Below the pieces are notes generated by a model that saw nothing but the letters and a program-made list of their open reading frames with translations, was not told where the DNA came from and did no database searches. The position numbers were made by a program, and so were the translations under genes. Below, one piece after another: positions 2,170-38,287 of a stretch of 64,000 nucleotides of DNA. Positions within the stretch are counted from its first letter, which is position 1. Each line of letters opens with the position of its first letter. This DNA comes from Lysobacterales bacterium (GTDB taxonomy: Bacteria > Pseudomonadota > Gammaproteobacteria > Xanthomonadales > Ahniellaceae): positions 6,828-70,827 of the forward strand of contig JAYUVY010000089.1 in assembly GCA_043753835.1 (NCBI GenBank), read 5' to 3'.

Positions 2170-2189
2170 GATAAGGATTTGCGGGCACC

Positions 2190-2558
2190 ATGAGCATCAG
2201 CAGCGCCGAAAGCATCGTCATGCAAGCCTTGTGGGACAGGCACCCGCAAACCGCCGAAGATCTGGTTCATGGCATCGGGCCGGCGCAGGACTGGCAGGAA
2301 TCCACGATCAAGACCTTGCTCACGCGCCTGCTCGCGAAGCAGGCGATTTGCGCCGAGAAAGACGGGCGCCGATTCCTGTATTCGCCGTTGGTGACGCGCG
2401 ATGACTGGGTTGCGGAACAGTCCGACTCGCTGCTCGATCGCTTGTTCGGTGGGCGCGTCGCGCCGTTGGTGGCGCACTTCGCCGAGCATCGCAAACTCAC
2501 GCCCAAGGACCTCGCCGATCTGAAGAAGCTGATCGCGGAGATCGACGATGGCCATTGA
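2190..2558 (+). CDS. BlaI/MecI/CopY-family winged-helix transcriptional repressor
   Basis: MSISSAESIVMQALWDRHPQTAEDLV...WQESTIKTLLTRLLAKQAI...YSPLVTRDDW is the typical family pattern. The gene overlaps the downstream M56 sensor gene. Confidence 0.85.
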   Translation: MSISSAESIVMQALWDRHPQTAEDLVHGIGPAQDWQESTIKTLLTRLLAKQAICAEKDGRRFLYSPLVTRDDWVAEQSDSLLDRLFGGRVAPLVAHFAEHRKLTPKDLADLKKLIAEIDDGH

Positions 2559-4371
2559 TCGCTGGTGGCTGCTGCTCAGTCAGCTGACTCTCGCGGTCAG
2601 TATCGCCCTGCTGGCGATCGCCGTGATTCGCGTGTTGGCGCGTCGCTGGCTCTTCCCGCGTGCGACCTATGCCCTGTGGCTGCTGTTGCCGTTGTCGGTG
2701 TTGGCGGTGAGCCTGCCGGCAACGCGCAAGGTCGTAGTCATCGACACGTCGCCGACGGCGCAAACAACCATCGTTGGCGAAGCGACGCCGGTGCTGCCGG
2801 AAGCGAGTTCGCGACCCATGCTGCTTCTGCTCTGGGCCAGCGGTTGTGCGATCAGTTGGATCGGATTTGCCTTGCTGCAGCGGCATTTTGTGCGGCGCCT
2901 GGGCGCGCAGCGCGGCGCCGGACGCATTTGGCGTTCGCCGCGCACCGACGTGTCACCGGTGGTGATCGGGCTGTGGCGACCGCGCATCGTATTGCCCGCC
3001 GATTTCGAATTGCGCTTCGATCCCGATGAGCAGCGCTTGATCACCGACCACGAAACCGCGCACCTGCAACGCCTGGACGTGCCGGCGAACGCGCTGGCGG
3101 CGCTGATCGTCGGAGTCTTCTGGTTCCATCCGCTGGTGTGGCTGGCATGGCGCCAGTTTCGCATCGATCAGGAATTCGCCTGTGACGCCGACGTACTTGA
3201 GCAGCATCCAACTTCCCGCAAGACCTATGCCGCGGCGATGCTCAAAGCCCAACTCAATCTAGATGCGTTGCCGCTCGGCTGTCACTGGTCACGCACGCAT
3301 CCACTCACCCGGAGAATCGAAATGCTCAAGCAACCCACCCCGTCGCGTGTTCGTATCCACGCAGTGCGCATCCTGCTGGCATTGCTCGCGCTCAGTCTCA
3401 GTTATGCACTTTGGGCGCAGAAGCCGGCGGTGACAACACTGGTGTCCGCAAACGCATCGCAGGCCGAGACGGCTTTGAATGCCACCGTGTTCACCACGAT
3501 CGGCACGTCCAGAAAACTGCATGATCCGATCGTCGACCTGCGCGCTCCGATATCGCTGGTGCACAGCTTCGATGGCGTCGACTGGACCTTCGAATTGAAT
3601 GTCGTGCCCGACGAGTCACACCCGAATTCAGCGCGTGTGTCGACTGTGATCAAGCGCGACGGCGTGGTGATGGGCAGTCCCATCATCGTCGTCGGTTATG
3701 GTGAACCGGGTGTGGTTCGCATCTCGGACGATGGCGGTGCGGCCATCTATGAAATGGAGATTCGTGTTGGTGCAAGCGATGCGCCGGCGGTGTCGATGGA
3801 GATCAAGTTCGGGCCGGAAGACCGATCGGTCGAACGTGTCGAGGACGGCGTCCGCATCATCTACGCGACAGTTGAGCGCAACGCCGAAGGCATCGCGACG
3901 GCCCTGGTGATCCCGAAAAACGGGTTGGACGAAAACGACCCGCAATTGATGGTGCAGCTGATGCAGCAGTCGCTTGCGTTCCAACGCTTCGAGGAAGATG
4001 GCGTCATCAAGGCCGAGCGTTATGGTGTGCGTATTCGTGAGCATGGCGACTCGTCGGCCCCTGCGGCGACGGGCTTCAGCTTCGGCGACCGCGAGCTGAT
4101 CGACTTCGGAGTCACAAATTTTCGCCGCTCGCCGACGACTGGCCAGCTCGCGCTCGGCGTGAAGCAACTGGCGGTGCGCGATGCATTTCTCGCCGCAGCG
4201 TCTCTCGCGAACCTGCGCGTGACCAATCCGAACCTGTCGAGCACGACACAGACGCTCGATTTCGAGTTGAGCGACGTGCCCGCCAATACGCTGCTGGACA
4301 CGATCGCCCGTGCCAGCAAGCCGCCGTTCGCTTACGTCATCGACGGCGACGCGATCACCTTGTCGCGCTAG
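2548..4371 (+). CDS. M56-family (BlaR1-like) membrane metalloprotease/signal transducer with a non-PBP C-terminal domain
   Basis: N-terminal TM helices and an HExxH zinc motif (DHETAHLQRLD). It is coupled to the BlaI-like gene. The C-terminal ~300 aa show no SxxK sensor motif. Confidence 0.8.
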   Translation: MAIDRWWLLLSQLTLAVSIALLAIAVIRVLARRWLFPRATYALWLLLPLSVLAVSLPATRKVVVIDTSPTAQTTIVGEATPVLPEASSRPMLLLLWASGCAISWIGFALLQRHFVRRLGAQRGAGRIWRSPRTDVSPVVIGLWRPRIVLPADFELRFDPDEQRLITDHETAHLQRLDVPANALAALIVGVFWFHPLVWLAWRQFRIDQEFACDADVLEQHPTSRKTYAAAMLKAQLNLDALPLGCHWSRTHPLTRRIEMLKQPTPSRVRIHAVRILLALLALSLSYALWAQKPAVTTLVSANASQAETALNATVFTTIGTSRKLHDPIVDLRAPISLVHSFDGVDWTFELNVVPDESHPNSARVSTVIKRDGVVMGSPIIVVGYGEPGVVRISDDGGAAIYEMEIRVGASDAPAVSMEIKFGPEDRSVERVEDGVRIIYATVERNAEGIATALVIPKNGLDENDPQLMVQLMQQSLAFQRFEEDGVIKAERYGVRIREHGDSSAPAATGFSFGDRELIDFGVTNFRRSPTTGQLALGVKQLAVRDAFLAAASLANLRVTNPNLSSTTQTLDFELSDVPANTLLDTIARASKPPFAYVIDGDAITLSR

Positions 4372-4431
4372 TTCATCGAAGTTGCGCAAGGCGCGCGCTG
4401 CTCTGGCAGACTGCGCGCCGCGAACAACGAG

Positions 4432-5130
4432 GTGGACATGAGCGAGCTGACGGAAGCAATGATCGACGAGGCGCTGCGCCTGTCGCCGATCGAGGCGCGG
4501 ATTGTCGGGTGTCTGATCGAGAAGTCGGCGACGACGCCGGAGGCGTACCCGCTGACTGTCAATTCGCTGCTGCTGGCGTCGAACCAGAAGACCAGTCGCG
4601 AGCCGATCATGAACCTTGAAGAGGGTGCGATCGGGCACGCGCTGCGCGAGCTTGAAGACCGGCGCTGGGTGCGCGTGGTGCACGGCTCGCGTGCGCATCG
4701 CTACGAACATCGCGTCGACGAATTGCTGAGCGCGACCAAGCCGCAACGTGCCTTGCTGTGTCTGCTGATGCTGCGCGGTCCGCAGTCTGCCGGTGAATTG
4801 TTGACGCGCAGCGACCGCCTCGCCGAACTCGGCGGTTTGGATGAAGTGAAACAGGTGCTGGAACGCTTGCAGCAACGGGGTTTCGTCGCTTGCATCGGGC
4901 GCGCCGCGGGCCAGCGCGACGACCGCTATGCGCACCTGTTCTGCGGTCCGGTCGAAGCCCATGCACGGCGCGAGGACGATGAACCGGCGACCGCTGGCGG
5001 ATCAGCTTCACTCGCTCAGCGTGTCAGTGAACTCGAAGCGACGGTGGCGGCGCTTGCTGCACGCATCGCGGCGCTCGAGTCGTCCGCGCTTTCGCGTGAA
5101 ATCGGCGACGGTGCTAGCCTCGCGTCATGA
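4432..5130 (+). CDS. yceH: YceH/DUF480-family protein
   Basis: LSPIEARIVGCLIEKSATTPEAYPLTVNSLLLASNQKTSREPIM...LLMLRGPQSAGELLTRSDRL is diagnostic of DUF480. Confidence 0.85.
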   Translation: MDMSELTEAMIDEALRLSPIEARIVGCLIEKSATTPEAYPLTVNSLLLASNQKTSREPIMNLEEGAIGHALRELEDRRWVRVVHGSRAHRYEHRVDELLSATKPQRALLCLLMLRGPQSAGELLTRSDRLAELGGLDEVKQVLERLQQRGFVACIGRAAGQRDDRYAHLFCGPVEAHARREDDEPATAGGSASLAQRVSELEATVAALAARIAALESSALSREIGDGASLAS

Positions 5131-5882
5131 CAGCAAGGTCTCTCCCGTACACACACTTCGCGCTCTCCCTGATGCTGTCGGCGCTGATCGCGGCGCCGCT
5201 GCGAGCGGCGGAAACCCCGGTGTCGGTGGTTTCGGCGACATGTCCGAACATTCCGGCTTCGCGAACCGTATCCGTGGTCACCTCGCAGGCCATTGCGGCC
5301 GGCCAGAGCATCGTTCTGGCGGTCGCCATCAACAGCGCCGATGCGCCTGATCTCGTCGTCACCGGGCCAGTTGGCGTGGTCTGGTCCACGCTTGGCGGCA
5401 ACAAATCCGAGCTGCGCGACCGCAGTGTGTTGCTGATACGCGGCCGCGCCAATCAAAATCTCGCCAGCGGTGCCGCGATTCAATTGGCTTTCGGCCTGGT
5501 CGAGAGCAGCCGCAACGCCTGCGTTCTCGGTTTGCGATTCAGCAGTTTCATCGATGGCGGCGATGCGACGGCGACGGACGGACAGAACCTCGGTGTCGCG
5601 GCCGATGTGCCGACCGCGTCGGGCAAAAACTCGGTGCAGACGGCGATGGGCATTGCGGCATTCGTGTTCGACGCAAACACCGGCGTCATGTCGACGTCAC
5701 CGGGGGCGATATCCGACGGCGGCGCCTGCAATGCCGCACTGGATCTGTGCCTGCGTGTCGCGCATCAGGGTGACGTCAGCGGTGCCGTCAATATTGACAA
5801 TACACCGACCACGGCCAGCGACTGGATCGCGACATTGGCCGTGCTCAATACGCCGGGCCTGTTCAAGGATGGCTTCGAGTAG
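5127..5882 (+). CDS. secreted hypothetical protein ending in the DGFE C-terminal motif
   Basis: Signal peptide FALSLMLSALIAAPLRAAE. The ATGA overlap with the yceH stop suggests coupling. The C-terminus is ...VLNTPGLFKDGFE-stop. Confidence 0.65.
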   Translation: MTARSLPYTHFALSLMLSALIAAPLRAAETPVSVVSATCPNIPASRTVSVVTSQAIAAGQSIVLAVAINSADAPDLVVTGPVGVVWSTLGGNKSELRDRSVLLIRGRANQNLASGAAIQLAFGLVESSRNACVLGLRFSSFIDGGDATATDGQNLGVAADVPTASGKNSVQTAMGIAAFVFDANTGVMSTSPGAISDGGACNAALDLCLRVAHQGDVSGAVNIDNTPTTASDWIATLAVLNTPGLFKDGFE

Positions 5883-5883
5883 G

Positions 5884-5907
5884 CGCGCCGGCGAAACCGG
5901 CGAAGTG
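5884..5907 (+). repeat. conserved short hairpin just 3' of a DGFE gene (copy 1)
   Basis: cgcgccggcgaaaccggcgaagtg, with stem cgccgg/ccggcg. By hand count, 21 of 24 nt are identical to copy 2 at 6404..6427. Confidence 0.6.
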
Positions 5908-6030
5908 TGTGCGACCTGACGCCATCACGCCTCGGGCGCCCGCCGCGCGATGACGTGCGACGCCTCGGCGCGTCTTCCGGAGAATCTCTGAATGTACGAT
6001 CAGGTCCCTACCGGAATCGGAGTGCGGACA

Positions 6031-6402
6031 ATGCGCAGTGCGTGGGCAGTCATTCTCTTGGTCGGAACCAGCACTGCTTGTGCGGATGCTTCGATCACCT
6101 TCGTCTGCTGTGCCTACACGCCAACCGCGGCCACTATTTCGGTGGGGGAGAGTGTCAGTTTTTCGGGCGAGTTCAACTTCCATCCGTTGCGGCAGGTGGA
6201 TGGGCCATCTTCCGACACCCCGACCCCAGGTGGCTTCGCGAATAGCACCGGAACTTTCTATGCCGTGCAATTCAACACGCCCGGCACCTACTACTTCCAG
6301 TGCGCATACCACGGGACATTTGGCGGCCCCATGCGCGGCAGTGTTCAGGTTCTCCCCCTGACTCCTCCCCTCGACCTGATTTTTAACGACGGGTTTGAGT
6401 GA
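6031..6402 (+). CDS. small secreted cupredoxin-like (type-1 blue copper) protein ending in the DGFE motif
   Basis: The internal ATG at 6031 follows ggagtg and gives the signal peptide MRSAWAVILLVGTSTACA. Candidate copper ligands are FNFHPL and YYFQCAYHGTFGGPM (His, Cys, His, Met). The C-terminus is ...DLIFNDGFE-stop. Confidence 0.65.
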   Translation: MRSAWAVILLVGTSTACADASITFVCCAYTPTAATISVGESVSFSGEFNFHPLRQVDGPSSDTPTPGGFANSTGTFYAVQFNTPGTYYFQCAYHGTFGGPMRGSVQVLPLTPPLDLIFNDGFE

Positions 6403-6403
6403 G

Positions 6404-6427
6404 TGCGCCGGCGAAACCGGTGAAGCG
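6404..6427 (+). repeat. conserved short hairpin just 3' of a DGFE gene (copy 2)
   Basis: tgcgccggcgaaaccggtgaagcg. It sits at the same position relative to the stop codon as copy 1. Confidence 0.6.
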
Positions 6428-6487
6428 TAAAGGGTGAAAGTCCTCGCCAACAAATGAGTAGCGATCCACGTTGTCCCGCCACGAGGC

Positions 6488-22369: not shown

Positions 22370-24838
22370 ATGGACCGGACTCGATCAATGCTGCGATTTG
22401 TGCGTACCGTGCTGCTGGTCTGCAGCTTGCCGATTTGTGCTGTGGCGCTGGCCACATCGCCCAAGGGGCAAGCGAAACACGGCTTTGCCTGCACCGGCGG
22501 TTTCGCCGACGGGTATCCGTGCAGCAACGTCGACTTGAAGAGTCGGATCAGTCTCGCCGCTTTCGGTTCGACGGCCGGCAGCTCGCTGTGGGGCTGGACG
22601 GACCCGGACACGCAACGCGAATACGCGCTGATGGGCTTGAACGACGGCACCGCCTTCGTCGACATCACCGTCGCCGACCATCCGGTCTATCTCGGCAAGT
22701 TGCCGAAGCAGTCGGTGAATTCGATCTGGCGTGAGCTGAAGACTTACGGCTATTACGCCTACATCGTGTCCGAGGCGGTCGATCACGGCATGCAGGTGTT
22801 CGATCTGCGGCGTCTGCGCAATGTCGCCAATCCGCCGCAGGTGTTCGTCGCCGATAACGTCTACACGCAGATCGGGCGCGCGCACAACGTCGTCGTCAAC
22901 AACCAAAGCGGCTATGCCTACGTTACCGGTAGCCGTCAGGGCGCGCAGATGTGTGGCAATGGCCTGCACTTCATCGATCTCGCCAATCCGGTCGTACCAG
23001 TGTTTGCCGGCTGTTTTTCGTCGGACGGATATACCCATGACGCGCAATGCGTGAACTACCAGGGGCCGGACCTCGACTACGTCGGCCACGAAATCTGTTT
23101 CGCCGCGAACGAAGACACGCTGACCATCGTCGACGTCACCAACAAGGCCAATCCGGTACAGATCATTCGCCTCGCCAATCCTTATCCCGGCGTGCGCTAC
23201 CTGCATCAGGGCTGGTTGACCGAGGACAGTCGCTATTTTCTGATCAATGACGAACTCGACGAGCAGAACAACGGCCACAACGCCAAAACCTACGTGATGA
23301 ACGTCAGCAATCTCGATGCGCCGGTGTTGCACACGACCTTTGTCAGCAGCCTGCCGAACATCGATCACAATCTGTTCGTCAAGGGTCGCTTTGCCTATCA
23401 GGCGAACTATCGCGCCGGGCTGCGCGTGCTCGATATCGGTCGCCTCGATGAGAGCCTGGTCACCGAGGTGGCCTACTTCGACACGTTTCCGAGCAGCAAC
23501 ACGGCCCAGTTCAACGGCGCCTGGAATGTCTATCCGTTCTTCGCCAGCGGCCACGTCATCATCAGCGATATCGAAAGTGGTCTGTTCGTGGTGAAACCGC
23601 AGCTGTGCCCGGTCTTGCCGACGCCGTCCGCGCCGGTCGTTGCGACGACGCTCGCGAAACAGACGGATCTGCAGTTCGCGACGCCGCCGGCGGGCATGAG
23701 CATCGACGTGCTGCGTCGTTATGACGGATGCGCCGGTGCGCCGGTGCAAATTGCCAGCGGCTTACTCGGCACCGCATTTGCGGATGTCGGTGTGTCCGGC
23801 CAGGTGCCGCTCGGTTATGCCATTCGTTATCGCGACAACACGCAGTCGCAGTGCACGTCGGCAGTGAGTGCCTGCGTGCCGGTGCAAGCGGCCGGCAACT
23901 GCAGCGCGCCGCCGGCATTCGCGGGCGTCGCCAGTGTGACCTCGGCGCCGTCCGCGATTTGTGCGATCGATAGCGCCTGGACGGCCGCGCAATCGCGCTG
24001 CGGTGGATCGATCGGCTACACGGTCGAACGCAGCGCGGGTGCGAGCTTCGATCCAAAGACCGCGGTCACGCTGGCCACCGATCTGACCACGACCAACTTT
24101 GTCGACAGCTCGGTGAGCGCGCCGGGTGTCTGGAGCTATCGCGTGCGCGCCGTCGACTCGGCCACCGGTCTCGGCGACAGCAATAGCGTGACGCTCAATG
24201 CGTCGGCGGCCGGCGCCATCGCGAATGGCAGCTTCAAGACCGGCGCCGAACGGGGCGAGGAATGGTTGGGCGCATCGGGCAGCTCGCTGCTGGGTTCGGT
24301 TGCTACGGTGCCGGTTCAGTCCAAGCATGTCGCCTGGGAAGTGAGCCAGAGCACAGCCGCCAGCGGCACCCAGAGTTATCATTCGGGTGCTGGACGTTCC
24401 GAATGTCTGGCGATGACGTCGCGCGACTTCCAGATCACGCCGGGACAAACCGCCACGCTGCAATTCAAGCAACGCTTCGACCTGCTCGCGGGACAGGACG
24501 CCGGACTGGTGCAGGTCTCGACCAATGGCGGGAGCACCTGGCAGACCGTCACCCCGACCGGCGCCTATCCGTCGACCGTCGCTGCCGTCAGTAGCAACGC
24601 CTGCGGATTTTCCGCCGGCACGCCGGTGTTTTCCGGCAGTAATCTGGCCTGGCATCCGCGCAGCATCACACTCAGCGGTTTGACCGGATCGTTGCGTTTC
24701 CGCTTCATGTTTTCGTCCAGCGCCAATTCCGGCAATCTCGGTTGGTGGATCGACGACGTTGTGCTCAACCAGGTGCAGGTGCCGGGCACCTGTGCCGTGC
24801 AGCCGTTGCTGTTGCTCGACGGCTTCGAAGGCGAATAA
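22370..24838 (+). CDS. large secreted choice-of-anchor-B/LVIVD-repeat-like protein with FN3-like and jelly-roll C-terminal domains, ending in DGFEGE
   Basis: Signal peptide MLRFVRTVLLVCSLPICAVALA. N-terminal region SSLWGWTDPDTQREYALMGLNDGTAFVDIT...YAYIVSEAVDHGMQVFDL. FN3-like segment GYTVERSAG...YRVRAVDSATG. The C-terminus is ...QPLLLLDGFEGE-stop. Confidence 0.75.
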   Translation: MDRTRSMLRFVRTVLLVCSLPICAVALATSPKGQAKHGFACTGGFADGYPCSNVDLKSRISLAAFGSTAGSSLWGWTDPDTQREYALMGLNDGTAFVDITVADHPVYLGKLPKQSVNSIWRELKTYGYYAYIVSEAVDHGMQVFDLRRLRNVANPPQVFVADNVYTQIGRAHNVVVNNQSGYAYVTGSRQGAQMCGNGLHFIDLANPVVPVFAGCFSSDGYTHDAQCVNYQGPDLDYVGHEICFAANEDTLTIVDVTNKANPVQIIRLANPYPGVRYLHQGWLTEDSRYFLINDELDEQNNGHNAKTYVMNVSNLDAPVLHTTFVSSLPNIDHNLFVKGRFAYQANYRAGLRVLDIGRLDESLVTEVAYFDTFPSSNTAQFNGAWNVYPFFASGHVIISDIESGLFVVKPQLCPVLPTPSAPVVATTLAKQTDLQFATPPAGMSIDVLRRYDGCAGAPVQIASGLLGTAFADVGVSGQVPLGYAIRYRDNTQSQCTSAVSACVPVQAAGNCSAPPAFAGVASVTSAPSAICAIDSAWTAAQSRCGGSIGYTVERSAGASFDPKTAVTLATDLTTTNFVDSSVSAPGVWSYRVRAVDSATGLGDSNSVTLNASAAGAIANGSFKTGAERGEEWLGASGSSLLGSVATVPVQSKHVAWEVSQSTAASGTQSYHSGAGRSECLAMTSRDFQITPGQTATLQFKQRFDLLAGQDAGLVQVSTNGGSTWQTVTPTGAYPSTVAAVSSNACGFSAGTPVFSGSNLAWHPRSITLSGLTGSLRFRFMFSSSANSGNLGWWIDDVVLNQVQVPGTCAVQPLLLLDGFEGE

Positions 24839-27196: not shown

Positions 27197-29882
27197 AATG
27201 ACCAAGACCAACCCGTTCGGGCGCGCGCTGTTGCTTACGGCATCGATGTTTGCCGCAGCGACTGTGCTTGCTGAACCGTTGCAACGCAGCCTCGGACTGG
27301 CGCGTTCCGTTTCTGCGCCGATGACTGCTGCCAAGACTCAGCGCCCCATTTCGGAGAAATCGATTTTTGCCGACGTGACGGAGAGTCAGCGTTTGGTTGC
27401 GTCGGTGCCAGGCGCGTTTGATGAATTTGGGCGTGCGGTTGCGACCGACGGTAATACCCTCGCAGTCGGCGCTTGGGGCAACGATGAAGGCGCGGCAGAT
27501 CCGGAAAATGATCCCATTTCAGGTGACGGCGCTGTCTCGGTGTTCTTGCGAACGGGTGCGACCTGGGCGCAACAGCAGCGCATCCTTCCGTCCGGCCTCG
27601 ACAAGTACGACGAGTTTGGCTGGTCGGTCGCGCTTTCCGGCGACACCCTCGTGGTTGGCAGTCCGGGTGAGGACACGCTGATCGGTGGATCCGAGTCGGG
27701 ATCTGTCTATGTATTTACGCGCAGCGCTGGCGTCTGGACCGAACAACAGAAGTTGCTTGGCAGCAATGTCGGGGTCAACTCTCGTTTTGGATACGCAGTT
27801 GCAGTCGAGGGCGACACCCTGATCGCCAGCGCGCCGCGCGAAAATGTGGACGGTGTTTCGCGTGCTGGCTCAGTCTATGTGTTTACCCGTTCGGGCAGCA
27901 CGTGGACGCAACAGGCGCGTCTGAAAGTCGCGGGAGCCGTCGCTGACGACATCTTGGGCACGAGTGTGGACTTGTCGGGTAATTACGCGGTCATCGGTGC
28001 GGAAGCGGCAGATACCCCGACCGGTGCCGATGCGGGCGCTGCCTATGTGTTCCTGCGCAGCGGCGTGAACTGGACGTTTCAGCTGCGGCTGCTTTCACCT
28101 GCACCGGTGATAGGTGGCGAGTTTGGGCGCTCGGTCGCCATCGACGGTGGCACGATCGCTGTCTCCGACCACGCTCGCGACAACGCGACCGGAAGGGTGG
28201 TTGTCTTCACGGGCGCGACAACGGTCTGGCCGGTTCAACAGACGCTGGCGGCCAGCGGTGGCCAGCCAGTGGACTTCTTCGGGCACGCGGTCGCCTTGCG
28301 TGGCGACGTGCTGTTCATCGGCGCCTATCAGGCCGATCTGAACACCAATGTGGATCGTGGCGCCGCGTATTCGTTTCTGCGCACCAGCAATGTATGGGCT
28401 CAAGTCGACAAGTTTTTTGCGAGTGATGCTTCAACGACCGGTGGCACGGAACGATTTGGTTTCGGTGTTGCGCTGTCGCCCAGCGTCGCTGTGGCGGGTG
28501 CCCCGCTGGATGAGAATGGCGCACTCTCCGACGCTGGCGCGGCTTATGTCTTCAATCGTGGCAGCGAGACGACGACAGCATTGTTCGCCAATCCGACCAC
28601 CATGAGCTATGGCCAGCAGATCACGCTGACCGCACAGGTCACCGGCGGGACGCCAACGGGCTCGGTCGAATTTCGCAATGGCGTGAACGTGCTTGCGACA
28701 GCGCCAGTCAATGGTTCCGGCATCGCTTCGAGCACTTTGACATTGGGTGTCGGCAGCTATTCGATTACGGCACGTTACCTGGGCGATATCGCTCACGTGG
28801 CCAGCACTTCGCCAGCGACCGCTGTCACCGTCAACCTCGCAGCGACCACGACCGCACTCAGCCTGAGCGCCGGCAGCAATCCCAGTGTGTATGGCCAGAG
28901 CGTCAGCTTCCGTGCTGCGGTCGCCGTCACGCCGCCCGGTGTCGGTCCGGCTACCGGCAACGTCGAGTTCCGCGACAACGGTGTCCTTGTCGCCACGCGC
29001 GCGCTGATTGCCGGCGAAGCGACGTTCACCACGAACACGCTGACGCACAATACCGGCACGGCGCATCCGATTACGGCGACTTACCTCGGCAACAGCAACT
29101 ACGGCACCAGCACGATCGGGCCGCTCAATCATGTCGTCAATCGCGCGGCGCCGACCAATGCCTTGACGAGTTCGCAGAATCCGTCGCTGTCCGGCCAGCA
29201 AGTCACGATCACCGCCACCATCACCGGCGGCATTCCGATCTGCTTCATGGATTTCTTTGCTGATGATTTGGGAAATGCCGATCCACGCGTCTTGATCGGA
29301 TCAAACGCGGTCAGCGGCAACACCGCGTCTGTACCGTGGACGCCGCTTGCGGCTGGCCAATACGCAATCACCGCCGACTGCGGGTCAGACCCGAACCAGT
29401 TCTCGGCCAATGCCAGCGGCTTGACCCAGATCGTCAACCTCGCCGCCGAAATCGCCGTGACCAAGTCCAACGGTGTCAACTCGGTTGAGGAAGGGGTGCC
29501 GACGACCTACACCATCACCGTCACCAACAACGGCCCGGAAAACATCACCGGCCTGCGCGTGGTCGATGACGTCAATACGGTCACCTTCGACGACAGCGTG
29601 AACGAAACCTCGTGGACCTGTGCCGTGGCGGGTGCCAGTGTTTGCAGCGCATCCGCCGGAGTCGGCGACTTGGCACTCGCCGGCACGCCGCTGTTGCTCG
29701 ATCTGACTGCTGGCGACGTCGCCACCATCACCCTCACCACCCGCGTCCGCGCCGGCCAGGAAGGCCCAGTCTCGAATACCGCATCGGTCGTTATCCCCGC
29801 CGGTTGGGGCGACGCGGTTCCTGCGAACAACACCGCCACCGACACCGATACCTCCGGACTCTTCGCCGACGGTTTCGAGTGA
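27197..29882 (+). CDS. large secreted FG-GAP beta-propeller / Ig-like repeat / DUF11-like protein ending in DGFE
   Basis: The ATG at 27197 follows ggagtg. Signal peptide MTKTNPFGRALLLTASMFAAATVLA. Seven FG-GAP-like blades (FGRAVATDGNTLAVGA, FGWSVALSGDTLVVGS, ...), then repeated Ig-like units (GSVEFRNG..., GNVEFRDNG...) and a DUF11-like unit (TYTITVTNNGPENITGLRVVDD). The C-terminus is ...TSGLFADGFE-stop. Confidence 0.8.
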
Positions 29883-29893
29883 TCGAGCAACGA

Positions 29894-30415
29894 ATGCCGA
29901 TGATGTTAGTGCGAACGTTGGCCTCGATGCTGATTGCTGGAACGATGTTTTTGGGTGCCCCTGCCGGCGCCCAGTCCGTTGTCCCCGCAATCATCGAGGT
30001 GCACCAAGCCAATACAGGCGAGGTGCTGCTCACGGCGAACGCAACGATGAGTTGCGGCTCGTATCCGGACGGCGCATTTTCGACGAGTCTCACGCGAAAC
30101 GTTGGCGACATCGAGGTGCTGACGCCGATGATCAATCTTGGATGTGCGCCGCCGGGGTCGGGGTCGCCGCCGGGGTCCTGGAGTTTTCAATTGGTTGAGA
30201 ACGCGGGTGTATTGGACGACGGCGTCTATAACGTCATCTGGAGATTCAGGTTCAGGGATGGACTTGAATTTCAGGCGACGAAGTCATTCCAAATCGTCAA
30301 CGGGGCTTTGCCGGGTCGGCATGCGGTGCCTGCGTCGGGTGTGGTTTCTTTGCTGCTGTTGGCCATGCTGGTGATCGCGGCCGCACACGTGGCGCGGCCG
30401 CGAATCGCGGCCTGA
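29894..30415 (+). CDS. small secreted protein with a tripartite C-terminal sorting-signal-like tail
   Basis: The start is 11 nt after the upstream stop. Signal peptide MPMMLVRTLASMLIAGTMFLGAPAGAQS. The C-terminus is HAVPASG-VVSLLLLAMLVIAAAHVA-RPRIAA (short motif, TM helix, basic residues). Confidence 0.6.
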   Translation: MPMMLVRTLASMLIAGTMFLGAPAGAQSVVPAIIEVHQANTGEVLLTANATMSCGSYPDGAFSTSLTRNVGDIEVLTPMINLGCAPPGSGSPPGSWSFQLVENAGVLDDGVYNVIWRFRFRDGLEFQATKSFQIVNGALPGRHAVPASGVVSLLLLAMLVIAAAHVARPRIAA

Positions 30416-35202: not shown

Positions 35203-36102
35203 CTAATTGTCGCTGGCCGCCTTGCGTGTGGCGCTGATGCGCACCCAATCGTCCTGTTGCTTGATCTCTATGGCATCGAAATCGCCGCGGTAGGCGGCGG
35301 CGACTTCCACAGCCTGGTCGACGAGGATGCCGGACAAGGCCAGCGGGGCGCCCATGCGGCAGTGCCCGGTGATGATCGGCTGCAGCGTGGTCAGCGCGCC
35401 GGCGAGGATGTTCGCGACCACGACATCGGCGGTCAGTCCGGCTGGCACTTCGTCGGGCAGATACAGATCGAATTGCGCGCTGACGCCATTGCGTTCGGCG
35501 TTGTCGCGACTCGCGGTGATCGCCTGCGGATCGTTGTCGATGCCGATCGCGCGCGCGGCGCCGAGTTTCAACGCGGCGATCGCGAGGATGCCCGAGCCGC
35601 AGCCGAAATCGAGCACGGTACGCCCGTGCAGATCGAGCCCGTCCAGCCATTCAAGGCAGAGCGCGGTGGTTGGGTGCGTGCCGGTGCCGAAGGCGAGGCC
35701 GGGATCGAGCCGCACAACGACGGCATCGGTATCGGCCGGTGGTTCGATGTTGGACGGATAGATCCAGGTACGACGACCGAATTGCATCGGCTTGAACTGA
35801 TCCATCCAGGCGCGCGTCCAGTCGGCATCGGCGACGTCGCGGGTCACGAGTTTCTCGGGCGTCAGCCACGGCACCATCAACTGCAACGCGTCGAACAAGC
35901 CGATGCGGTCCACCGTGGTCGGAAACAGCGCACGCACGATGACCTGCGGCCACATCGGCGTCTCGCCCGGGCCGGGCTCAAGGATCGGATGATCTTCTGC
36001 GTCGAGCAGGGTGATCGACGCGGCTTCAAGATCCTCGAGCGCAGCCTCGACGCGCGAGAGCGAACGCTGTTCCACTTCGATCGAGAGTTCGAGCCAGGCC
36101 AC
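35203..36102 (-). CDS. prmA: ribosomal protein L11 methyltransferase
   Basis: GLAFGTGTHPTTALCLEWL...VLDFGCGSGILAIAALKLGA. The GTG start shares one base with the upstream stop codon (TAGTG). Confidence 0.9.
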   Translation of the reverse strand: MAWLELSIEVEQRSLSRVEAALEDLEAASITLLDAEDHPILEPGPGETPMWPQVIVRALFPTTVDRIGLFDALQLMVPWLTPEKLVTRDVADADWTRAWMDQFKPMQFGRRTWIYPSNIEPPADTDAVVVRLDPGLAFGTGTHPTTALCLEWLDGLDLHGRTVLDFGCGSGILAIAALKLGAARAIGIDNDPQAITASRDNAERNGVSAQFDLYLPDEVPAGLTADVVVANILAGALTTLQPIITGHCRMGAPLALSGILVDQAVEVAAAYRGDFDAIEIKQQDDWVRISATRKAASDN

Positions 36103-37097
36103 TAACGAACCTCGGGAATTTGAAGATTCACGTGACTAGCAATGTTCAGTGCGAGTCGCTTGAAATCGAGGCGACAAGCCCGGACAGCATCCGTATGCGC
36201 ACCAATTACGCCATCTGACGCCTTCAATTCGAACATTGGTTTGCGCGCCTGCATGGCCAGAGGTGCGAGGCTCCGATAGTGCTTAAGGCTCGCGAGGTGA
36301 TATGGATCCTCGGCGATTGTTTTGCCGAAAGAATCCATCACAATATTTTCGTGAAATTCCGACGGGATGCGCGCCAGGAATCGCTCGTAGGCCTTGACGG
36401 GGCTTCCGTCTCGAAGTCCGAACTGCATCACAACGTATCCAGCAGGATGCATATCCCCGCTGGGTAGATTGAAATCCAGGTCTGTAGGTCGTTTTGCGAC
36501 ACGGTCGGCCCATTCGCTCCGCCATGCTTTGATTCGGGGCCCAAGATTTCGCAGTGCTTGAATCGAAAACAGGTCCGGGGCTAATGGGACCACGACGAAG
36601 TCGGCAGCGATCAATGCGGCGCGTGTTATCGCTCCCAGATTCGGGCCCAAATCAACGAGTGCCAATTGAGCGCCGGTGGCTGATCCGGCCATGGTTATTG
36701 CGCGGGAGAACGACGCGGTGAACCGCAGCGCCGACTCGTTTCCGCTGCTCGCCTGCATCCAGTCAATAGACATTCGGTCTTCGACCTGCGACAGGGCCAA
36801 GTCGCCAGGAAGCAATGAAAGACGTCGATTTACAGGCACTATCGGAGGAGGAAGAAGATCTCCTTTGCCGCGAATGAGCGGCTCAAGCATCCCGAAAATG
36901 CTGGCACGCGATCCACTGTCCGGCCAGATGCGTTGCAATCCAGCATCTGGCAGACACATGCTGGTCAGATTTGACTGCGGGTCGAGATCGACGCATACAG
37001 ATTCAATGCCAAGGTCGGCAAACATCCATGCGACGTGGTAAAGCAAGGTGGTCTTCCCTACGCCGCCCTTGTTGTTGAAGAAGGCAACAGTGATCAT
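36102..37097 (-). CDS. ParA/MinD-like deviant Walker-A ATPase with a ~100-aa C-terminal extension (no ParB partner)
   Basis: MITVAFFNNKGGVGKTTLLYHVA...VDLDPQSNLTS...ALVDLGPNLG. About 50-52 % GC in hand-counted lines, against ~62 % in accC. It shares an ATGA overlap with the upstream gene. Confidence 0.75.
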   Translation of the reverse strand: MITVAFFNNKGGVGKTTLLYHVAWMFADLGIESVCVDLDPQSNLTSMCLPDAGLQRIWPDSGSRASIFGMLEPLIRGKGDLLPPPIVPVNRRLSLLPGDLALSQVEDRMSIDWMQASSGNESALRFTASFSRAITMAGSATGAQLALVDLGPNLGAITRAALIAADFVVVPLAPDLFSIQALRNLGPRIKAWRSEWADRVAKRPTDLDFNLPSGDMHPAGYVVMQFGLRDGSPVKAYERFLARIPSEFHENIVMDSFGKTIAEDPYHLASLKHYRSLAPLAMQARKPMFELKASDGVIGAHTDAVRACRLDFKRLALNIASHVNLQIPEVR

Positions 37098-38287
37098 GCG
37101 CCGCGCGCAGCCATCGTGACGGCAAATTGACGATCGTCAGCAACAAACATCGCGGGCGCATGGCCGGCCTCGTTCAGTCGTCTCTGCGCTAGGCGAATTC
37201 CAGAGCCGTATCGATTGACATATCCAAGTGTCTTCATGGCCTCGGCGATGATTGGATTGCGATAGCTACTGCGAGTTTCCAACGTTTCCTTCGTAACTTC
37301 ACCTACCAGACCGCCTGGACTAATGATCTCTACCCGATCCAGAAACCAGTAGACGCGAATGGGTGTGTTCGATTGGTAGTCTCGATGCATGACAGCATTG
37401 TTGAATAGCTCGCTCAAGGCAACTTCAGGGTAGTCAGGTTGATAACGCTCAGCGATCCCGCCAGTACGGGCTACGGCAACTTGTATGCGCGCTCGAAACA
37501 GTTCTTGGACTTGCGAAACAACGCTTCTCAAGTCCCCCGACACTTCTCGCTCACTAATCGGCGAATCCGTCACGTCGGTGCTCGGCCACACTACGAACTG
37601 TACGTACGCCCCGGGTAAGAAGAATCTTGGGTTGATGCCGAACAACAGGAGCCCCGCATGCGTCGGGAGTTCCGCTCGCAAATCAAAGAAGCGAAGCGCT
37701 GCAAGCTGCTCACTGGGTGTTCGATGATTGGCCGCGATGATTTCGTCTGCAACCACGGCCGCGCGGTATTCCCCAAACAATCGCATTGACAAGTCTTCGT
37801 TCGCAGCGCCCTGACATGGCTCAGCGTCAAAGGATCTTGCCGAGATTGACCTTCGCTCGGACAGCATCCGTTCTTCTTGTTCCGTCGCAATCGCTTTGGA
37901 GGGCCCTACTCGAATCCAGACTCGACCCCGGTAATTCACTGGCGGCAATAACGCAGGTTCAACAGCGACGACTGCTACATCTCCGCCTTCGAAAGTATGT
38001 TTGCTAACGGTCATCGCGGGAAGGGGTTGGATATTTCCATCTCGACGCAATCCAGCAAGTCCCTCAAGTAAGCGCTCCGTGACGATCAAGCCTGAGGGCT
38101 GCCCGTTCTTGCGCACGCCGAGCAGCAAATAGCCGGGCTTGCGATGATTAGGAAAGTCATTCGCAAATGCACAGACGGCTTCACTGAACTTGTCCGTGTT
38201 TGTAGTTGATTCGGTGCGCTCGACGCGATCCGATTCCAAATCGGCCATCAACGCGAATACCTGATCGTCCGTAAGAGCGGCCATCAT
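37094..38287 (-). CDS. Schlafen-like AlbA_2 domain protein with a C-terminal HATPase_c_4-like domain
   Basis: N-terminal pattern DLESDRVERTES...EAVCAFANDFPNHRKPGYLLLGVRKNG...VWIRVGPS (AlbA_2-like). C-terminal pattern ELFNNAVMHRDYQSNTPIRVYWFLDRVEIISPGGL...YRNPIIAEAMKTLGYVNRYGSGI (HATPase_c_4-like). The start is 8 nt after the accC stop. Confidence 0.7.
   Translation of the reverse strand: MMAALTDDQVFALMADLESDRVERTESTTNTDKFSEAVCAFANDFPNHRKPGYLLLGVRKNGQPSGLIVTERLLEGLAGLRRDGNIQPLPAMTVSKHTFEGGDVAVVAVEPALLPPVNYRGRVWIRVGPSKAIATEQEERMLSERRSISARSFDAEPCQGAANEDLSMRLFGEYRAAVVADEIIAANHRTPSEQLAALRFFDLRAELPTHAGLLLFGINPRFFLPGAYVQFVVWPSTDVTDSPISEREVSGDLRSVVSQVQELFRARIQVAVARTGGIAERYQPDYPEVALSELFNNAVMHRDYQSNTPIRVYWFLDRVEIISPGGLVGEVTKETLETRSSYRNPIIAEAMKTLGYVNRYGSGIRLAQRRLNEAGHAPAMFVADDRQFAVTMAARGA

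What the first reader, a model, noticed from the sequence alone, without database searches (positions are those of the whole stretch)
5127..6427. Recurrent extreme C-terminal motif [LIF][LF]xDGFE on secreted proteins: two adjacent genes plus two more in the window
Four proteins with clear signal peptides end almost identically. They are ...TPGLFKDGFE* (5127..5882), ...LDLIFNDGFE* (6031..6402), ...PLLLLDGFEGE* (22370..24838) and ...TSGLFADGFE* (27197..29882). Their bodies are unrelated: unknown fold, cupredoxin, LVIVD/jelly-roll, and FG-GAP propeller/Ig/DUF11. That is four of roughly eleven signal-peptide proteins I can see in the window. No TM helix follows the motif, so it is not of the PEP-CTERM/LPXTG/GlyGly-CTERM type. 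It looks more like a free C-terminal tag for secretion, outer-membrane or cell-surface attachment, or recognition by a processing enzyme. The two adjacent genes also share the sequence just after the stop codon (the GCGCCGGCGAAACCGGyGAAG hairpin, 21 of 24 nt identical), which suggests the tail plus 3' flank spread as a unit. One caveat comes from memory. FxD[DG]FExG is a common motif at the start of jelly-roll domains in secreted bacterial proteins, so the tails could be vestiges of domain boundaries rather than a signal.
Basis: partly seen in the sequence, partly recalled or inferred. Interest (0 to 1): 0.75.

Follow-up and report, generated by a model that had tools for sequence, protein, structure and literature searches.

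The report
Short C-terminal "DGFE" protein tag
Four unrelated exported proteins in this window end in the same flexible seven-residue tail ([L/I]-F-x-D-G-F-E), which is conserved and common in Lysobacterales, has a 20-residue version in other soil bacteria, and is probably an undescribed secretion or surface-attachment tag.

Summary
Four of about 60 genes end in [LI][FL]xDGFE(GE)-stop, and even the relaxed core [DN][GS]F[DE] occurs nowhere else in the window's genes.

- **Conservation:** The tail ends 17/17 homologues of gene A and 12/14 of gene B. It lies within 9 residues of the end in 77/120 homologues of gene C. No orthologue has a further domain after it.
- **Distribution:** A capped scan of about 185,000 species genomes found about 50 long, signal-peptide ORFs with the tail. 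Almost all were from Dokdonella, Ahniellaceae, Aquimonas, Chiayiivirga, Tahibacter, Rudaea, Wenzhouxiangellaceae and related MAGs. In 364 kb of these loci, 57 occurrences were terminal and 10 internal.
- **Structure:** AlphaFold2 leaves the tail disordered in A and C.
- **Cargo:** Cargo includes choice-of-anchor B/D/Q/Z, M36 protease and rhombotarget families, which elsewhere carry PEP-CTERM, GlyGly-CTERM or T9SS signals.
- **Long form:** A 20-residue version ([IL]FxDGFESGDTSAWSxxVP-stop) is common in Acidobacteriota and metagenomes. It resembles the first strand of ConA-like jelly-roll domains.
- **Known models:** No Pfam or NCBIfam model and no paper found covers either form.

The best reading is a helix-less C-terminal sorting or attachment tag whose partner is unknown. 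The shared 3' hairpin is local to this genome and unrelated to the tail.

The parts
5127..5882 (+). Gene A: 251-aa signal-peptide protein, all-beta, no known family. It ends in ...TPGLFKDGFE-stop.
   Evidence: It has no Pfam or NCBIfam hit. All 17 homologues end in [LI]F[KA][DN][GS]FE, and F246, F250 and E251 are invariant. The AlphaFold2 body has pLDDT around 90. No PDB fold match was found.
5859..5879 (+). Tail of A (LFKDGFE).
   Evidence: It is invariant or nearly invariant across homologues. AlphaFold2 pLDDT is about 51 over residues 241-250 and 32 at residue 251, below 50 for residues 247-251, with no secondary structure.
6031..6402 (+). Gene B: 123-aa signal-peptide cupredoxin-like protein. 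It ends in ...LDLIFNDGFE-stop.
   Evidence: Of 14 homologues, 12 end in [IVM][FY]x[DNS]GFE-stop. The gene is absent from the orthologous locus L001.
6379..6399 (+). Tail of B (IFNDGFE).
22370..24838 (+). Gene C: choice-of-anchor B plus MAM-like secreted protein. It ends in ...PLLLLDGFEGE-stop.
   Evidence: TIGR04312 scores 489 bits against a cut-off of 100. Among 120 homologues, 77 have the short tail, about 30 have the long tail, and a few have a transmembrane or T9SS anchor instead.
24809..24835 (+). Tail of C (LLLDGFEGE).
   Evidence: In the AlphaFold2 model, built from a 65-sequence alignment, the last strand is residues 791-805. Residues 811-822 have pLDDT falling from 52 to 42, with no secondary structure.
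27198..29882 (+). Gene D: 894-aa FG-GAP_2 / Big_3_5 / DUF11 secreted protein. It ends in ...TSGLFADGFE-stop.
   Evidence: The DUF11 match ends at residue 883 and the tail follows directly. Orthologues P0166 and P0179 end in GLFKDSFED and GLFDDGFED.
29859..29879 (+). Tail of D (LFADGFE).
5883..5906 (+). 24-nt copy of the start of gene B's 3' element, placed directly after the stop of A. It is not part of the tail phenomenon.
6403..6450 (+). Conserved 3' element of about 48 nt directly after the stop of B, beginning GUGCG. It is not part of the tail phenomenon.
   Evidence: It matches at 43/48 positions after the B homologue in L124. The only Rfam result is a sub-threshold RF02005 hit.

Best explanation
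The motif D-x-[IL]-F-x-[DN]-G-F-E at, or within a few residues of, the C-terminus is a short linear sorting or attachment tag. It sits on Sec-exported proteins of extracellular type in a subset of Lysobacterales and in Wenzhouxiangellaceae.

**Shown**
- It is portable across unrelated protein bodies.
- It is under strong purifying selection at the protein level.
- It is almost exclusively terminal.
- It is predicted to lie outside the folded domain.
- It is present on several per cent of the genes sampled near other tailed genes.
- It sits where homologues from other lineages carry established sorting signals.
- It is the trimmed form of a 20-residue tail, [IL]FxDGFESGDTSAWSxxVP-COOH. That tail is common in Acidobacteriota and soil and sediment metagenomes, and resembles the first beta-strand or hairpin of ConA-like jelly-roll domains.

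**Inferred**
After Sec export and folding in the periplasm, an unidentified partner reads the exposed tail. The partner either routes the cargo across the outer membrane or holds it on the cell surface. Recognition is probably by beta-strand addition to an acceptor domain. No helix-dependent sortase-type cleavage is involved, because there is no membrane-spanning segment.
For: **Chance is excluded.** Four of about 60 genes carry the tail, and the core occurs nowhere else in the window.

**Conservation.** The tail ends 17/17 A homologues, with invariant F, F and E, and 12/14 B homologues. In the C family, 77 of 120 homologues have the short tail and about 30 the long tail.

- Of 93 hits followed by a stop, 53 are long ORFs with [LIVM] at position -7. 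That position was not part of the search pattern.
- Of those 53, 36 are in records named as Lysobacterales-type or Wenzhouxiangellaceae.
- None of the 31 control hits followed by TGG instead of a stop is from such a record.
- D at position -9 occurs in 30 of 61 tails. This position was also not in the pattern.

**Terminal bias.** In 48 loci (364 kb, 277 genes) there are 57 terminal and 10 internal occurrences. Only one internal case has the full motif. About 13 tailed genes were not ascertained by the scan pattern, roughly 5% of neighbouring genes.

**Export.** At least 46 of 50 tailed genes with complete N-termini have signal peptides.

**Not part of the fold.** AlphaFold2 gives confident bodies but disordered tails in A and C.

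**Cargo class.** Among 61 tailed proteins are 8 choice-of-anchor Q, 3 B, 1 D, 1 Z, 2 M36 proteases whose NCBIfam relatives are split by sorting system, and 2 rhombotarget A. Pfam finds propellers, beta-helices, Ig and cadherin domains, DUF11, peptidase M14 and endonuclease I. Homologues of C and D in other phyla end in a transmembrane helix plus Arg cluster, a T9SS domain or dockerin-like tails.

**Long form.** Of 66 metagenome hits to DGFExGD..W, 50 stop within 24 residues and 39 at exactly 16. Six contigs carry 2-3 such genes.
Against: - There is no experimental localisation.
- No cognate machinery was found. The only recurrent neighbours of tailed genes are regulators: Ser/Thr kinase-TPR proteins and an ECF sigma factor.
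- The window contains no secretion or sorting genes.
- A seven-residue acidic-aromatic tail with no helix has no precedent among characterised bacterial sorting signals.
- The motif tolerates 0-9 trailing residues, so a free carboxylate is not what is read.
- In other phyla the long form can be internal, and can coexist with a transmembrane anchor further downstream, as in P0223 and P0247.
- The 5% figure comes from loci chosen because they contain a tail, so it is probably inflated.
- Both collection scans were cut at 120 rows, so the taxonomic picture is a sample.
Confidence: 0.5

Rival explanations
1. The tail is an assembly or adhesion peptide, not an export signal. It would act outside the cell as an orphan first strand of a jelly-roll. 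It could insert into an incomplete acceptor domain by donor-strand complementation, possibly with a covalent link through the Asx-Gly. Alternatively it could bind Ca2+, LPS or exopolysaccharide. Either way it would tether or cross-link matrix and surface proteins.
For: The long form matches the opening strand of Laminin_G_3 / ConA-like domains. The [DN]-G pair is conserved and D and N interchange. This fits a tight turn or a reactive Asx. The tail is flexible and exposed. Cargo is adhesin-like.
Against: No acceptor protein was identified. Seven residues is very short for stable strand insertion. This reading overlaps with the surface-attachment half of the main explanation, and sequence alone cannot separate the two.
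Confidence: 0.22
2. The tail is a recognition site for a periplasmic or extracellular protease or quality-control factor, for example a PDZ protease. It would control maturation or turnover rather than location.
For: It is an exposed, conserved C-terminal peptide. PDZ-type proteases read C-terminal peptides (established knowledge).
Against: Known PDZ ligands end in a hydrophobic residue with a free carboxylate. Here the end is Glu, and 0-9 extra residues are tolerated. The cargo families are those that elsewhere carry sorting signals.
Confidence: 0.1
3. The tail is a vestige or a structural cap. It would be a leftover domain boundary from a lost C-terminal jelly-roll domain, or a cap strand packing on the preceding domain, with no signalling role.
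For: The long form does open jelly-roll domains in about 10 of 66 metagenome cases.
Against: The tail is the best-conserved segment in families at 50-60% identity. It follows at least four unrelated folds. No orthologue keeps a downstream domain. There is no space for a decayed domain after the four stops. AlphaFold2 does not pack the tail onto the body. The long form has a fixed length of 16 residues after D in 39 of 50 cases.
Confidence: 0.06
4. The recurrence is a DNA-level feature. The tail plus its flank would be a repeat, a mobile-element end or an integration site, as the first reader suggested for A and B.
For: A 24-nt direct repeat flanks gene B. B is absent from the orthologous locus L001. 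The element begins GUGCG and gives a weak group II intron hit.
Against: The four tails differ at synonymous sites. The element is found only in this genome and, after gene B only, in L124. Tails elsewhere have unrelated flanks. This can explain how B arrived, but not the motif.
Confidence: 0.02

Closest known systems
Tripartite C-terminal sorting domains (LPXTG, PEP-CTERM/exosortase, GlyGly-CTERM/rhombosortase, MYXO-CTERM/myxosortase, IPTL-CTERM)
   Same: Both sit at the extreme C-terminus of signal-peptide proteins. Both have a short signature motif and many cargo proteins per genome with unrelated bodies. Both are lineage-specific. The cargo families are the same: choice-of-anchor families, M36 proteases and rhombotargets.
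   Different: The DGFE tail has no hydrophobic helix and no Arg cluster after the motif. Both are defining parts of the tripartite design (preprint 10.1101/2023.06.07.544157, read). An intramembrane sortase-type enzyme is therefore unlikely. The whole signal is 7-9 residues, or 20 in the long form.
Type IX secretion C-terminal domain (Por_Secre_tail)
   Same: Both are C-terminal signals without a transmembrane helix on Sec-exported surface proteins. Both are found on homologues of the same cargo. P0063, a choice-of-anchor B homologue, carries PF18962.
   Different: The T9SS domain is a folded beta-sandwich of about 70-100 residues and is restricted to Bacteroidota and relatives (established knowledge). 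The DGFE tail is a disordered heptapeptide in Gammaproteobacteria. No Pfam or NCBIfam hit was found.
N-terminal strand of ConA-like jelly-roll domains (Pfam Laminin_G_3 and relatives)
   Same: The long form, [IL]FxDGFESGDxSxW, is the sequence that opens such domains in some metagenome proteins.
   Different: In the tails nothing follows. The sequence stops 0-9 residues after GFE in the short form, or exactly 16 residues after D in the long form. No domain is present.
Donor-strand or split-domain tags (chaperone-usher pilin N-terminal extensions; isopeptide tags of the SpyTag type)
   Same: These are also short, exposed, strand-forming peptides that complete another protein's beta-sandwich. The reactive residue in isopeptide tags is Asp or Asn (established knowledge). 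The resemblance is by analogy only.
   Different: No acceptor domain, Lys partner or usher was identified here. Nothing was tested.

Membership tests
Tripartite C-terminal sorting signals (PEP-CTERM / GlyGly-CTERM / MYXO-CTERM / LPXTG type) | Signature motif close to the C-terminus of a signal-peptide protein | tested here: met
   The motif lies 0-9 residues from the end. Signal peptides are present.
Tripartite C-terminal sorting signals (PEP-CTERM / GlyGly-CTERM / MYXO-CTERM / LPXTG type) | Hydrophobic transmembrane segment after the motif | tested here: not met
   Zero to two residues follow the motif in the window. In related loci 51 of 61 tails have none. The definition is taken from the paper read.
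Tripartite C-terminal sorting signals (PEP-CTERM / GlyGly-CTERM / MYXO-CTERM / LPXTG type) | Arg-rich cluster at the very end | tested here: not met
   The tails end in E, or in short trailing sequences such as GE, DP or SP.
Tripartite C-terminal sorting signals (PEP-CTERM / GlyGly-CTERM / MYXO-CTERM / LPXTG type) | Co-occurring dedicated sorting enzyme | not testable with these tools
   Whole-genome phylogenetic profiling was not available. Neighbour clustering found only kinases, a sigma factor and ABC ATPases.
Tripartite C-terminal sorting signals (PEP-CTERM / GlyGly-CTERM / MYXO-CTERM / LPXTG type) | Many cargo proteins per genome with unrelated domains | tested here: met
   There are four in 64 kb here. 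Loci of 8 kb hold up to 3. Several genomes were hit more than once within a 120-row sample. The cargo covers 54 Pfam families.
Type IX secretion C-terminal domain | Folded C-terminal domain of about 70-100 aa matching Por_Secre_tail models | tested here: not met
   No such hit was found in A-D. The tail is 7-9 residues and disordered.
Type I secretion C-terminal signal | No N-terminal signal peptide; one-step export | tested here: not met
   Clear Sec signal peptides are present on A-D and on at least 46 of 50 tailed proteins.
Outer-membrane protein beta-signal | Terminal aromatic residue at the end of a beta-barrel | tested here: not met
   The last residue is Glu. The bodies are soluble propellers, Ig domains, a cupredoxin and beta-helices.
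ConA-like jelly-roll domain (Laminin_G_3) | Full domain of about 150-200 aa following the opening FxDxFE..G....W strand | tested here: not met
   A stop codon follows the motif. No orthologue has a following domain. The full domain appears only in unrelated metagenome proteins.
Choice-of-anchor B family (TIGR04312), gene C only | Match to the family model above its curated cut-off | tested here: met
   The score is 489 bits against a cut-off of 100, over residues 40-409.

The most novel reading that the evidence does not exclude
The DGFE tail and its 20-residue relative ...FxDGFESGDTSAWSxxVP would form a new class of bacterial protein-sorting or surface-docking signal. It would be a helix-less orphan jelly-roll strand, read by a dedicated and still unknown acceptor or export factor. 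It might act by donor-strand insertion or by a covalent Asx-Gly-based link. It would be used by tens to hundreds of proteins per genome in many Lysobacterales, Acidobacteriota and uncultured soil bacteria.
Probability: 0.3. Interest if true: 0.85.

Novelty: new variant of a known kind. Interest (0 to 1): 0.72.

Why it matters
Short C-terminal tags are how bacteria decide which exported proteins stay on the surface. Each new tag (LPXTG, PEP-CTERM, GlyGly-CTERM, MYXO-CTERM, the T9SS domain) has led to a new enzyme or secretion pathway.

This tail marks a large and diverse set of adhesin-like proteins, proteases and nucleases. The carriers are environmentally abundant but poorly studied groups: Dokdonella, Ahniella and Wenzhouxiangella-type Gammaproteobacteria, plus Acidobacteriota for the long form. 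The tail lacks the helix and Arg cluster that every characterised short tag has. Pfam and NCBIfam do not model it.

It gives a simple handle for several things:
- predicting surface and secreted proteomes in these groups
- finding the partner by phylogenetic profiling
- possibly using the tail as a small display or secretion tag

Tried and rejected
- **Exhaustive representative search with gene D.** It returned mostly giant repeat proteins from other phyla. Only two true orthologues were found. It was useful only to show which other anchors occupy the same position.
- **Structure search of the gene A model against PDB.** No match reached E below 0.01, so the body remains of unknown fold.
- **PDB sequence search with the long tail.** Nothing significant.
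- **NCBIfam and Pfam scans of isolated tails.** No model matched.
- **Literature searches.** I searched for DGFE, tail hexapeptides, choice-of-anchor, Xanthomonadales sorting and Wenzhouxiangella secretome. No description of the motif was found. Only open-access PMC and bioRxiv were searched.
- **Neighbour clustering of 340 genes from 49 loci, to find a processing enzyme.** The only recurrent untailed neighbours were Ser/Thr kinase-TPR proteins, an ECF sigma factor and generic ABC ATPases.
- **Cobalamin riboswitch idea for the GGUGAAAGUCC stretch after gene B.** Rejected. Rfam gives no hit at gathering thresholds and only a weak group II intron hit.
- **'LLRPLLP' ends of Chloroflexi homologues of C as another tail.** Rejected. 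That sequence is the end of the choice-of-anchor B domain itself, matching GLFVVKPQLCP inside gene C.
- **First DNA pattern for the genome scan.** The pattern actually used requires TTC/TTC/GAG codons, so it under-samples tails. It misses gene B, for example.
Full report
**1. The observation**

The window is 63% G+C. It carries rho, blaI/blaR1-like genes, DUF480, the ilv and leu operons, accC, aroQ, waaA and holC-pepA-lptF-lptG. This is the gene order of a Lysobacterales-type gammaproteobacterium. The closest named homologues are Lysobacterales, Dokdonella and Rhodanobacteraceae MAGs.

| Gene | Coordinates | C-terminus |
|---|---|---|
| A | 5127-5882 | ...TPGLFKDGFE* |
| B | 6031-6402 | ...LDLIFNDGFE* |
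| C | 22370-24838 | ...PLLLLDGFEGE* |
| D | 27198-29882 | ...TSGLFADGFE* |

The start of D was off by one base in the finding.

All four have Sec signal peptides. Their bodies are unrelated:
- A has no family match.
- B is a weak cupredoxin match.
- C is choice-of-anchor B (489 bits, cut-off 100) plus a MAM-like domain.
- D is FG-GAP_2, Big_3_5 and DUF11. The tail starts right after the DUF11 match ends.

In about 60 called genes, the relaxed core [DN][GS]F[DE] occurs only in these four and only at the end. The four tails use different synonymous codons, so the similarity is selected at the protein level.

**2. Conservation in orthologues**

- **Gene A:** all 17 homologues (53-91% identical) end in [LI]F[KA][DN][GS]FE-stop. 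The two Phe and the final Glu are invariant, while the family averages 70% column identity.
- **Gene B:** 12 of 14 homologues end in [IVM][FY]x[DNS]GFE-stop. Of the other two, P0295 has a Pro/Thr-rich linker and a different end, and P0301 has an unrelated extension. A third homologue, P0300 (a Thermoflexales record), also has a Pro/Thr-rich linker.
- **Gene C:** the 120 best homologues split as follows:

| C-terminal feature | Number |
|---|---|
| Motif within 9 residues of the end | 77 |
| Longer W-containing version | about 30 |
| CoA-B domain itself at the C-terminus (Chloroflexi) | 8 |
| Transmembrane helix plus basic end | 2 |
| T9SS domain (PF18962) | 1 |

- None of the 120 has the motif more than 30 residues from the end.
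- **Gene D:** the two true orthologues end in GLFKDSFED and GLFDDGFED. More distant homologues end in a transmembrane helix plus Arg cluster or in dockerin-like tails.

The window also has no room for a decayed domain after any of the four stops.

**3. Distribution and enrichment**

I scanned one genome per species (about 185,000 species) for TTC-NNN-GAY-GGN-TTC-GAG-TRR.

- Of 93 hits followed by a stop codon, 53 are ORFs of at least about 100 aa with [LIVM] just before the first Phe. That position was not in the search pattern.
- Of those 53, 36 lie in records named Lysobacteraceae, Lysobacterales, Rhodanobacteraceae, Ahniellaceae, Dokdonella, Aquimonas, Chiayiivirga, Tahibacter, Rudaea, Denitratimonas or Wenzhouxiangellaceae. 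Most of the rest are unclassified gammaproteobacterial MAGs.
- These groups are, from my own knowledge, only a per cent or two of species. No named Xanthomonas, Stenotrophomonas or Lysobacter species appeared in the sample.
- The 31 hits followed by TGG (Trp) serve as an internal control. None is from those taxa, and most are cytoplasmic proteins such as GyrB.

In 48 such loci (364 kb, 277 called genes):
- The core is within 12 residues of the end in 57 genes and internal in 10. Only one internal case has the full motif.
- About 13 tailed genes were not ascertained by the scan pattern. That is roughly 5% of neighbouring genes. The figure is probably inflated because tailed genes cluster.
- An Asp three residues before the first Phe occurs in 30 of 61 tails. 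The extended consensus is D-x-[IL]-F-x-[DN]-G-F-E.
- Nothing follows the motif in 51 of 61 tails.
- At least 46 of 50 tailed genes with complete N-termini have signal peptides.
- Variants such as IFKDHFE exist (L001), so my regular expressions undercount.

**4. The tail is outside the fold**

The AlphaFold2 model of A (18-sequence alignment) is a confident all-beta body with pLDDT around 90. Its last strand is residues 233-241. Mean pLDDT is about 51 over residues 241-250 and 32 at residue 251, below 50 for residues 247-251, with no secondary structure.

The model of C (65 sequences, mean pLDDT 87) has its last strand at 791-805. Residues 811-822 have pLDDT falling from 52 to 42.

The tail is conserved, terminal and disordered, which is the signature of a short linear motif read by something else.

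**5. What carries it**

Pfam hits among 61 tailed proteins include DUF5122, FG-GAP and WD40 propellers, beta-helices, Ig and cadherin domains, DUF11, peptidase M14 and endonuclease I.

NCBIfam finds 8 choice-of-anchor Q, 3 B, 1 D and 1 Z. It also finds 2 M36 metalloproteases, whose curated relatives are split into rhombosortase-, myxosortase- and T9SS-dependent families, 2 rhombotarget A and 7 delta-60 repeat proteins.

These are the protein classes that other lineages equip with PEP-CTERM, GlyGly-CTERM, MYXO-CTERM, LPXTG or T9SS signals. The tail occupies that slot. Periplasmic proteins in the window (YceI, lipocalin) lack it.

**6. A longer relative and its origin**

C homologues from Acidobacteriota end in ...LFADGFESGDTSAWSxxVP. 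Intermediates such as ...IFADGFEAATTTP from Dokdonella immobilis link the two forms in one orthologous family.

I then scanned metagenomes for DGFExGD without requiring a stop. This scan was also cut at 120 rows and gave 121 hits.

| Class of hit | Number |
|---|---|
| With the following Trp (DGFExGD..W) | 66 |
| Of these, stop within 24 residues | 50 |
| Of these, stop at exactly 16 residues after the Asp | 39 |
| Of the 66, sequence continues beyond 24 residues | 16 |

- The consensus of the terminal cases is [IL]F[AS]DGFESGDTSAWSATVP-stop.
- Six contigs carry two or three such genes, including variants the pattern could not have selected.
- Of the 16 cases that continue, about ten open a larger domain. 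Two of these are Laminin_G_3 / ConA-like jelly-rolls (E 1.7e-9 and 1.2e-3).
Terminal use nevertheless dominates, and in Lysobacterales it is almost exclusive.
- Neither form hits any Pfam or NCBIfam model. Six literature searches found no description.

**7. The 3' hairpin**

- GCGCCGGCGAAACCGGYGAAG occurs twice in the window, starting 2 nt after the stops of A and B. Among all fetched loci it is found only in this genome.
- It does not fold better than shuffled sequence, and no T-run follows it.
- It is the start of an element of about 48 nt, beginning GUGCG, that follows gene B. The element is 43/48 identical after the B homologue of another species, L124, where the protein is only 64% identical. 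It is absent after three other B homologues.
- Gene B is missing from the orthologous locus L001, where A is followed after 13 nt by the convergent beta-helix gene.
- B and its flank therefore look inserted in this lineage, leaving a 24-nt direct repeat.
- Rfam gives only a sub-threshold group II intron hit (15.9 bits against a gathering score of 49).
- This is a local curiosity. It does not explain the tail and is not linked to it.

**8. Mechanism**

*Shown:* the tail is a portable, selected, exposed, terminal peptide on Sec-exported proteins of surface or extracellular type. It stands in for known sorting signals. It has a longer homologous form in other phyla.

*Inferred:* a partner reads it after export, either for passage across the outer membrane or for retention on the surface. 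I put this at 0.5.

Known short sorting signals are tripartite: a motif, a helix and an Arg cluster (preprint 10.1101/2023.06.07.544157). This tail has only the motif, so an intramembrane sortase-type enzyme is unlikely. Its resemblance to the first jelly-roll strand makes beta-strand addition to an acceptor domain the most concrete guess.

Rival explanations:

| Rival | Confidence |
|---|---|
| Extracellular assembly or ligand-binding peptide | 0.22 |
| Protease or quality-control recognition site | 0.10 |
| Vestige or structural cap | 0.06 |
| DNA-level repeat or mobile-element feature | 0.02 |

I found no partner. The only recurrent neighbours are Ser/Thr kinase-TPR proteins and an ECF sigma factor.

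**9. Verdict**

The finding is real, non-random and conserved. As far as these libraries show, it is undescribed. It works like a C-terminal sorting tag but fails two of the three defining features of the tripartite family. It also fails the tests for T9SS, T1SS and outer-membrane beta-signals.

I rate it a new variant of a known kind. There is a fair chance that it marks a new pathway.

Noticed in passing
L035, L079, L094 (Acidobacteriota genomes); metagenome loci L131, L137, L141, L177, L217 and about 45 others; P0094-P0137: A 20-residue C-terminal tail, [IL]FxDGFESGDTSAWSxxVP-stop, is common in Acidobacteriota and in soil and sediment metagenomes. Its length is fixed at 16 residues after the Asp in 39 of 50 cases. 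Several copies can occur per contig. Pfam and NCBIfam do not model it.
   Followed up: partly
window 6403-6450 and 5883-5906; L124 7189-7236: A non-coding element of about 48 nt begins GUGCG directly after the stop of gene B. It is about 90% conserved after the B homologue of another species. Its first 24 nt are repeated after gene A. The only Rfam result is a weak sub-threshold hit to group II intron RF02005. Gene B looks like an insertion relative to L001.
   Followed up: partly
window 29897-30415 (+): A small signal-peptide protein lies 14 nt downstream of gene D. It ends in ...AVPASGVVSLLLLAMLVIAAAHVARPRIAA, a hydrophobic helix plus a basic end. This resembles a classical tripartite sorting signal, but no NCBIfam or Pfam model matches it.
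   Followed up: partly
window 36102-38287 (-): A two-gene low-G+C island (0.55-0.57 against 0.63) lies between prmA and accC. It encodes a Schlafen AlbA_2 + HATPase_c_4 protein and a ParA-like AAA_31 ATPase. It may be a mobile or defence insertion.
   Followed up: partly
L023, L032, L038, L064, L099, L103 and L001 (3182-5743): Large Ser/Thr protein kinase-TPR genes lie next to tailed genes in seven scan loci and in L001. In three loci there is an ECF sigma factor of the TIGR02999 type, and in L001 an FHA-sigma54 activator. This suggests dedicated regulation of these secreted proteins.
   Followed up: partly
window 2175-5882; L001 7043-10759; L002: Gene A always follows blaI-like, blaR1-like (Peptidase_M56) and DUF480 genes. 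Its ATG overlaps the DUF480 stop (ATGA). This looks like a conserved four-gene operon linking a signal-sensing protease system to a tailed protein of unknown fold.
   Followed up: no
P0295, P0300 (homologues of gene B): Homologues P0295 and P0300 (the latter from a Thermoflexales record) replace the DGFE tail with a long Pro/Thr-rich linker ending in ...AYLPFTLR or ...AFLPAVLR. This may be another lineage-specific C-terminal motif.
   Followed up: no
L001 1-1462; L124 3592-6606: Tail variants fall outside my regular expressions. A DUF7948/P_proprotein protein ends in ...EIFKDHFE. A BNR/sortilin protein ends in ...LLQSGFEDGQVLTPPSCN. The true number of tailed proteins is therefore higher than counted.
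   Followed up: no
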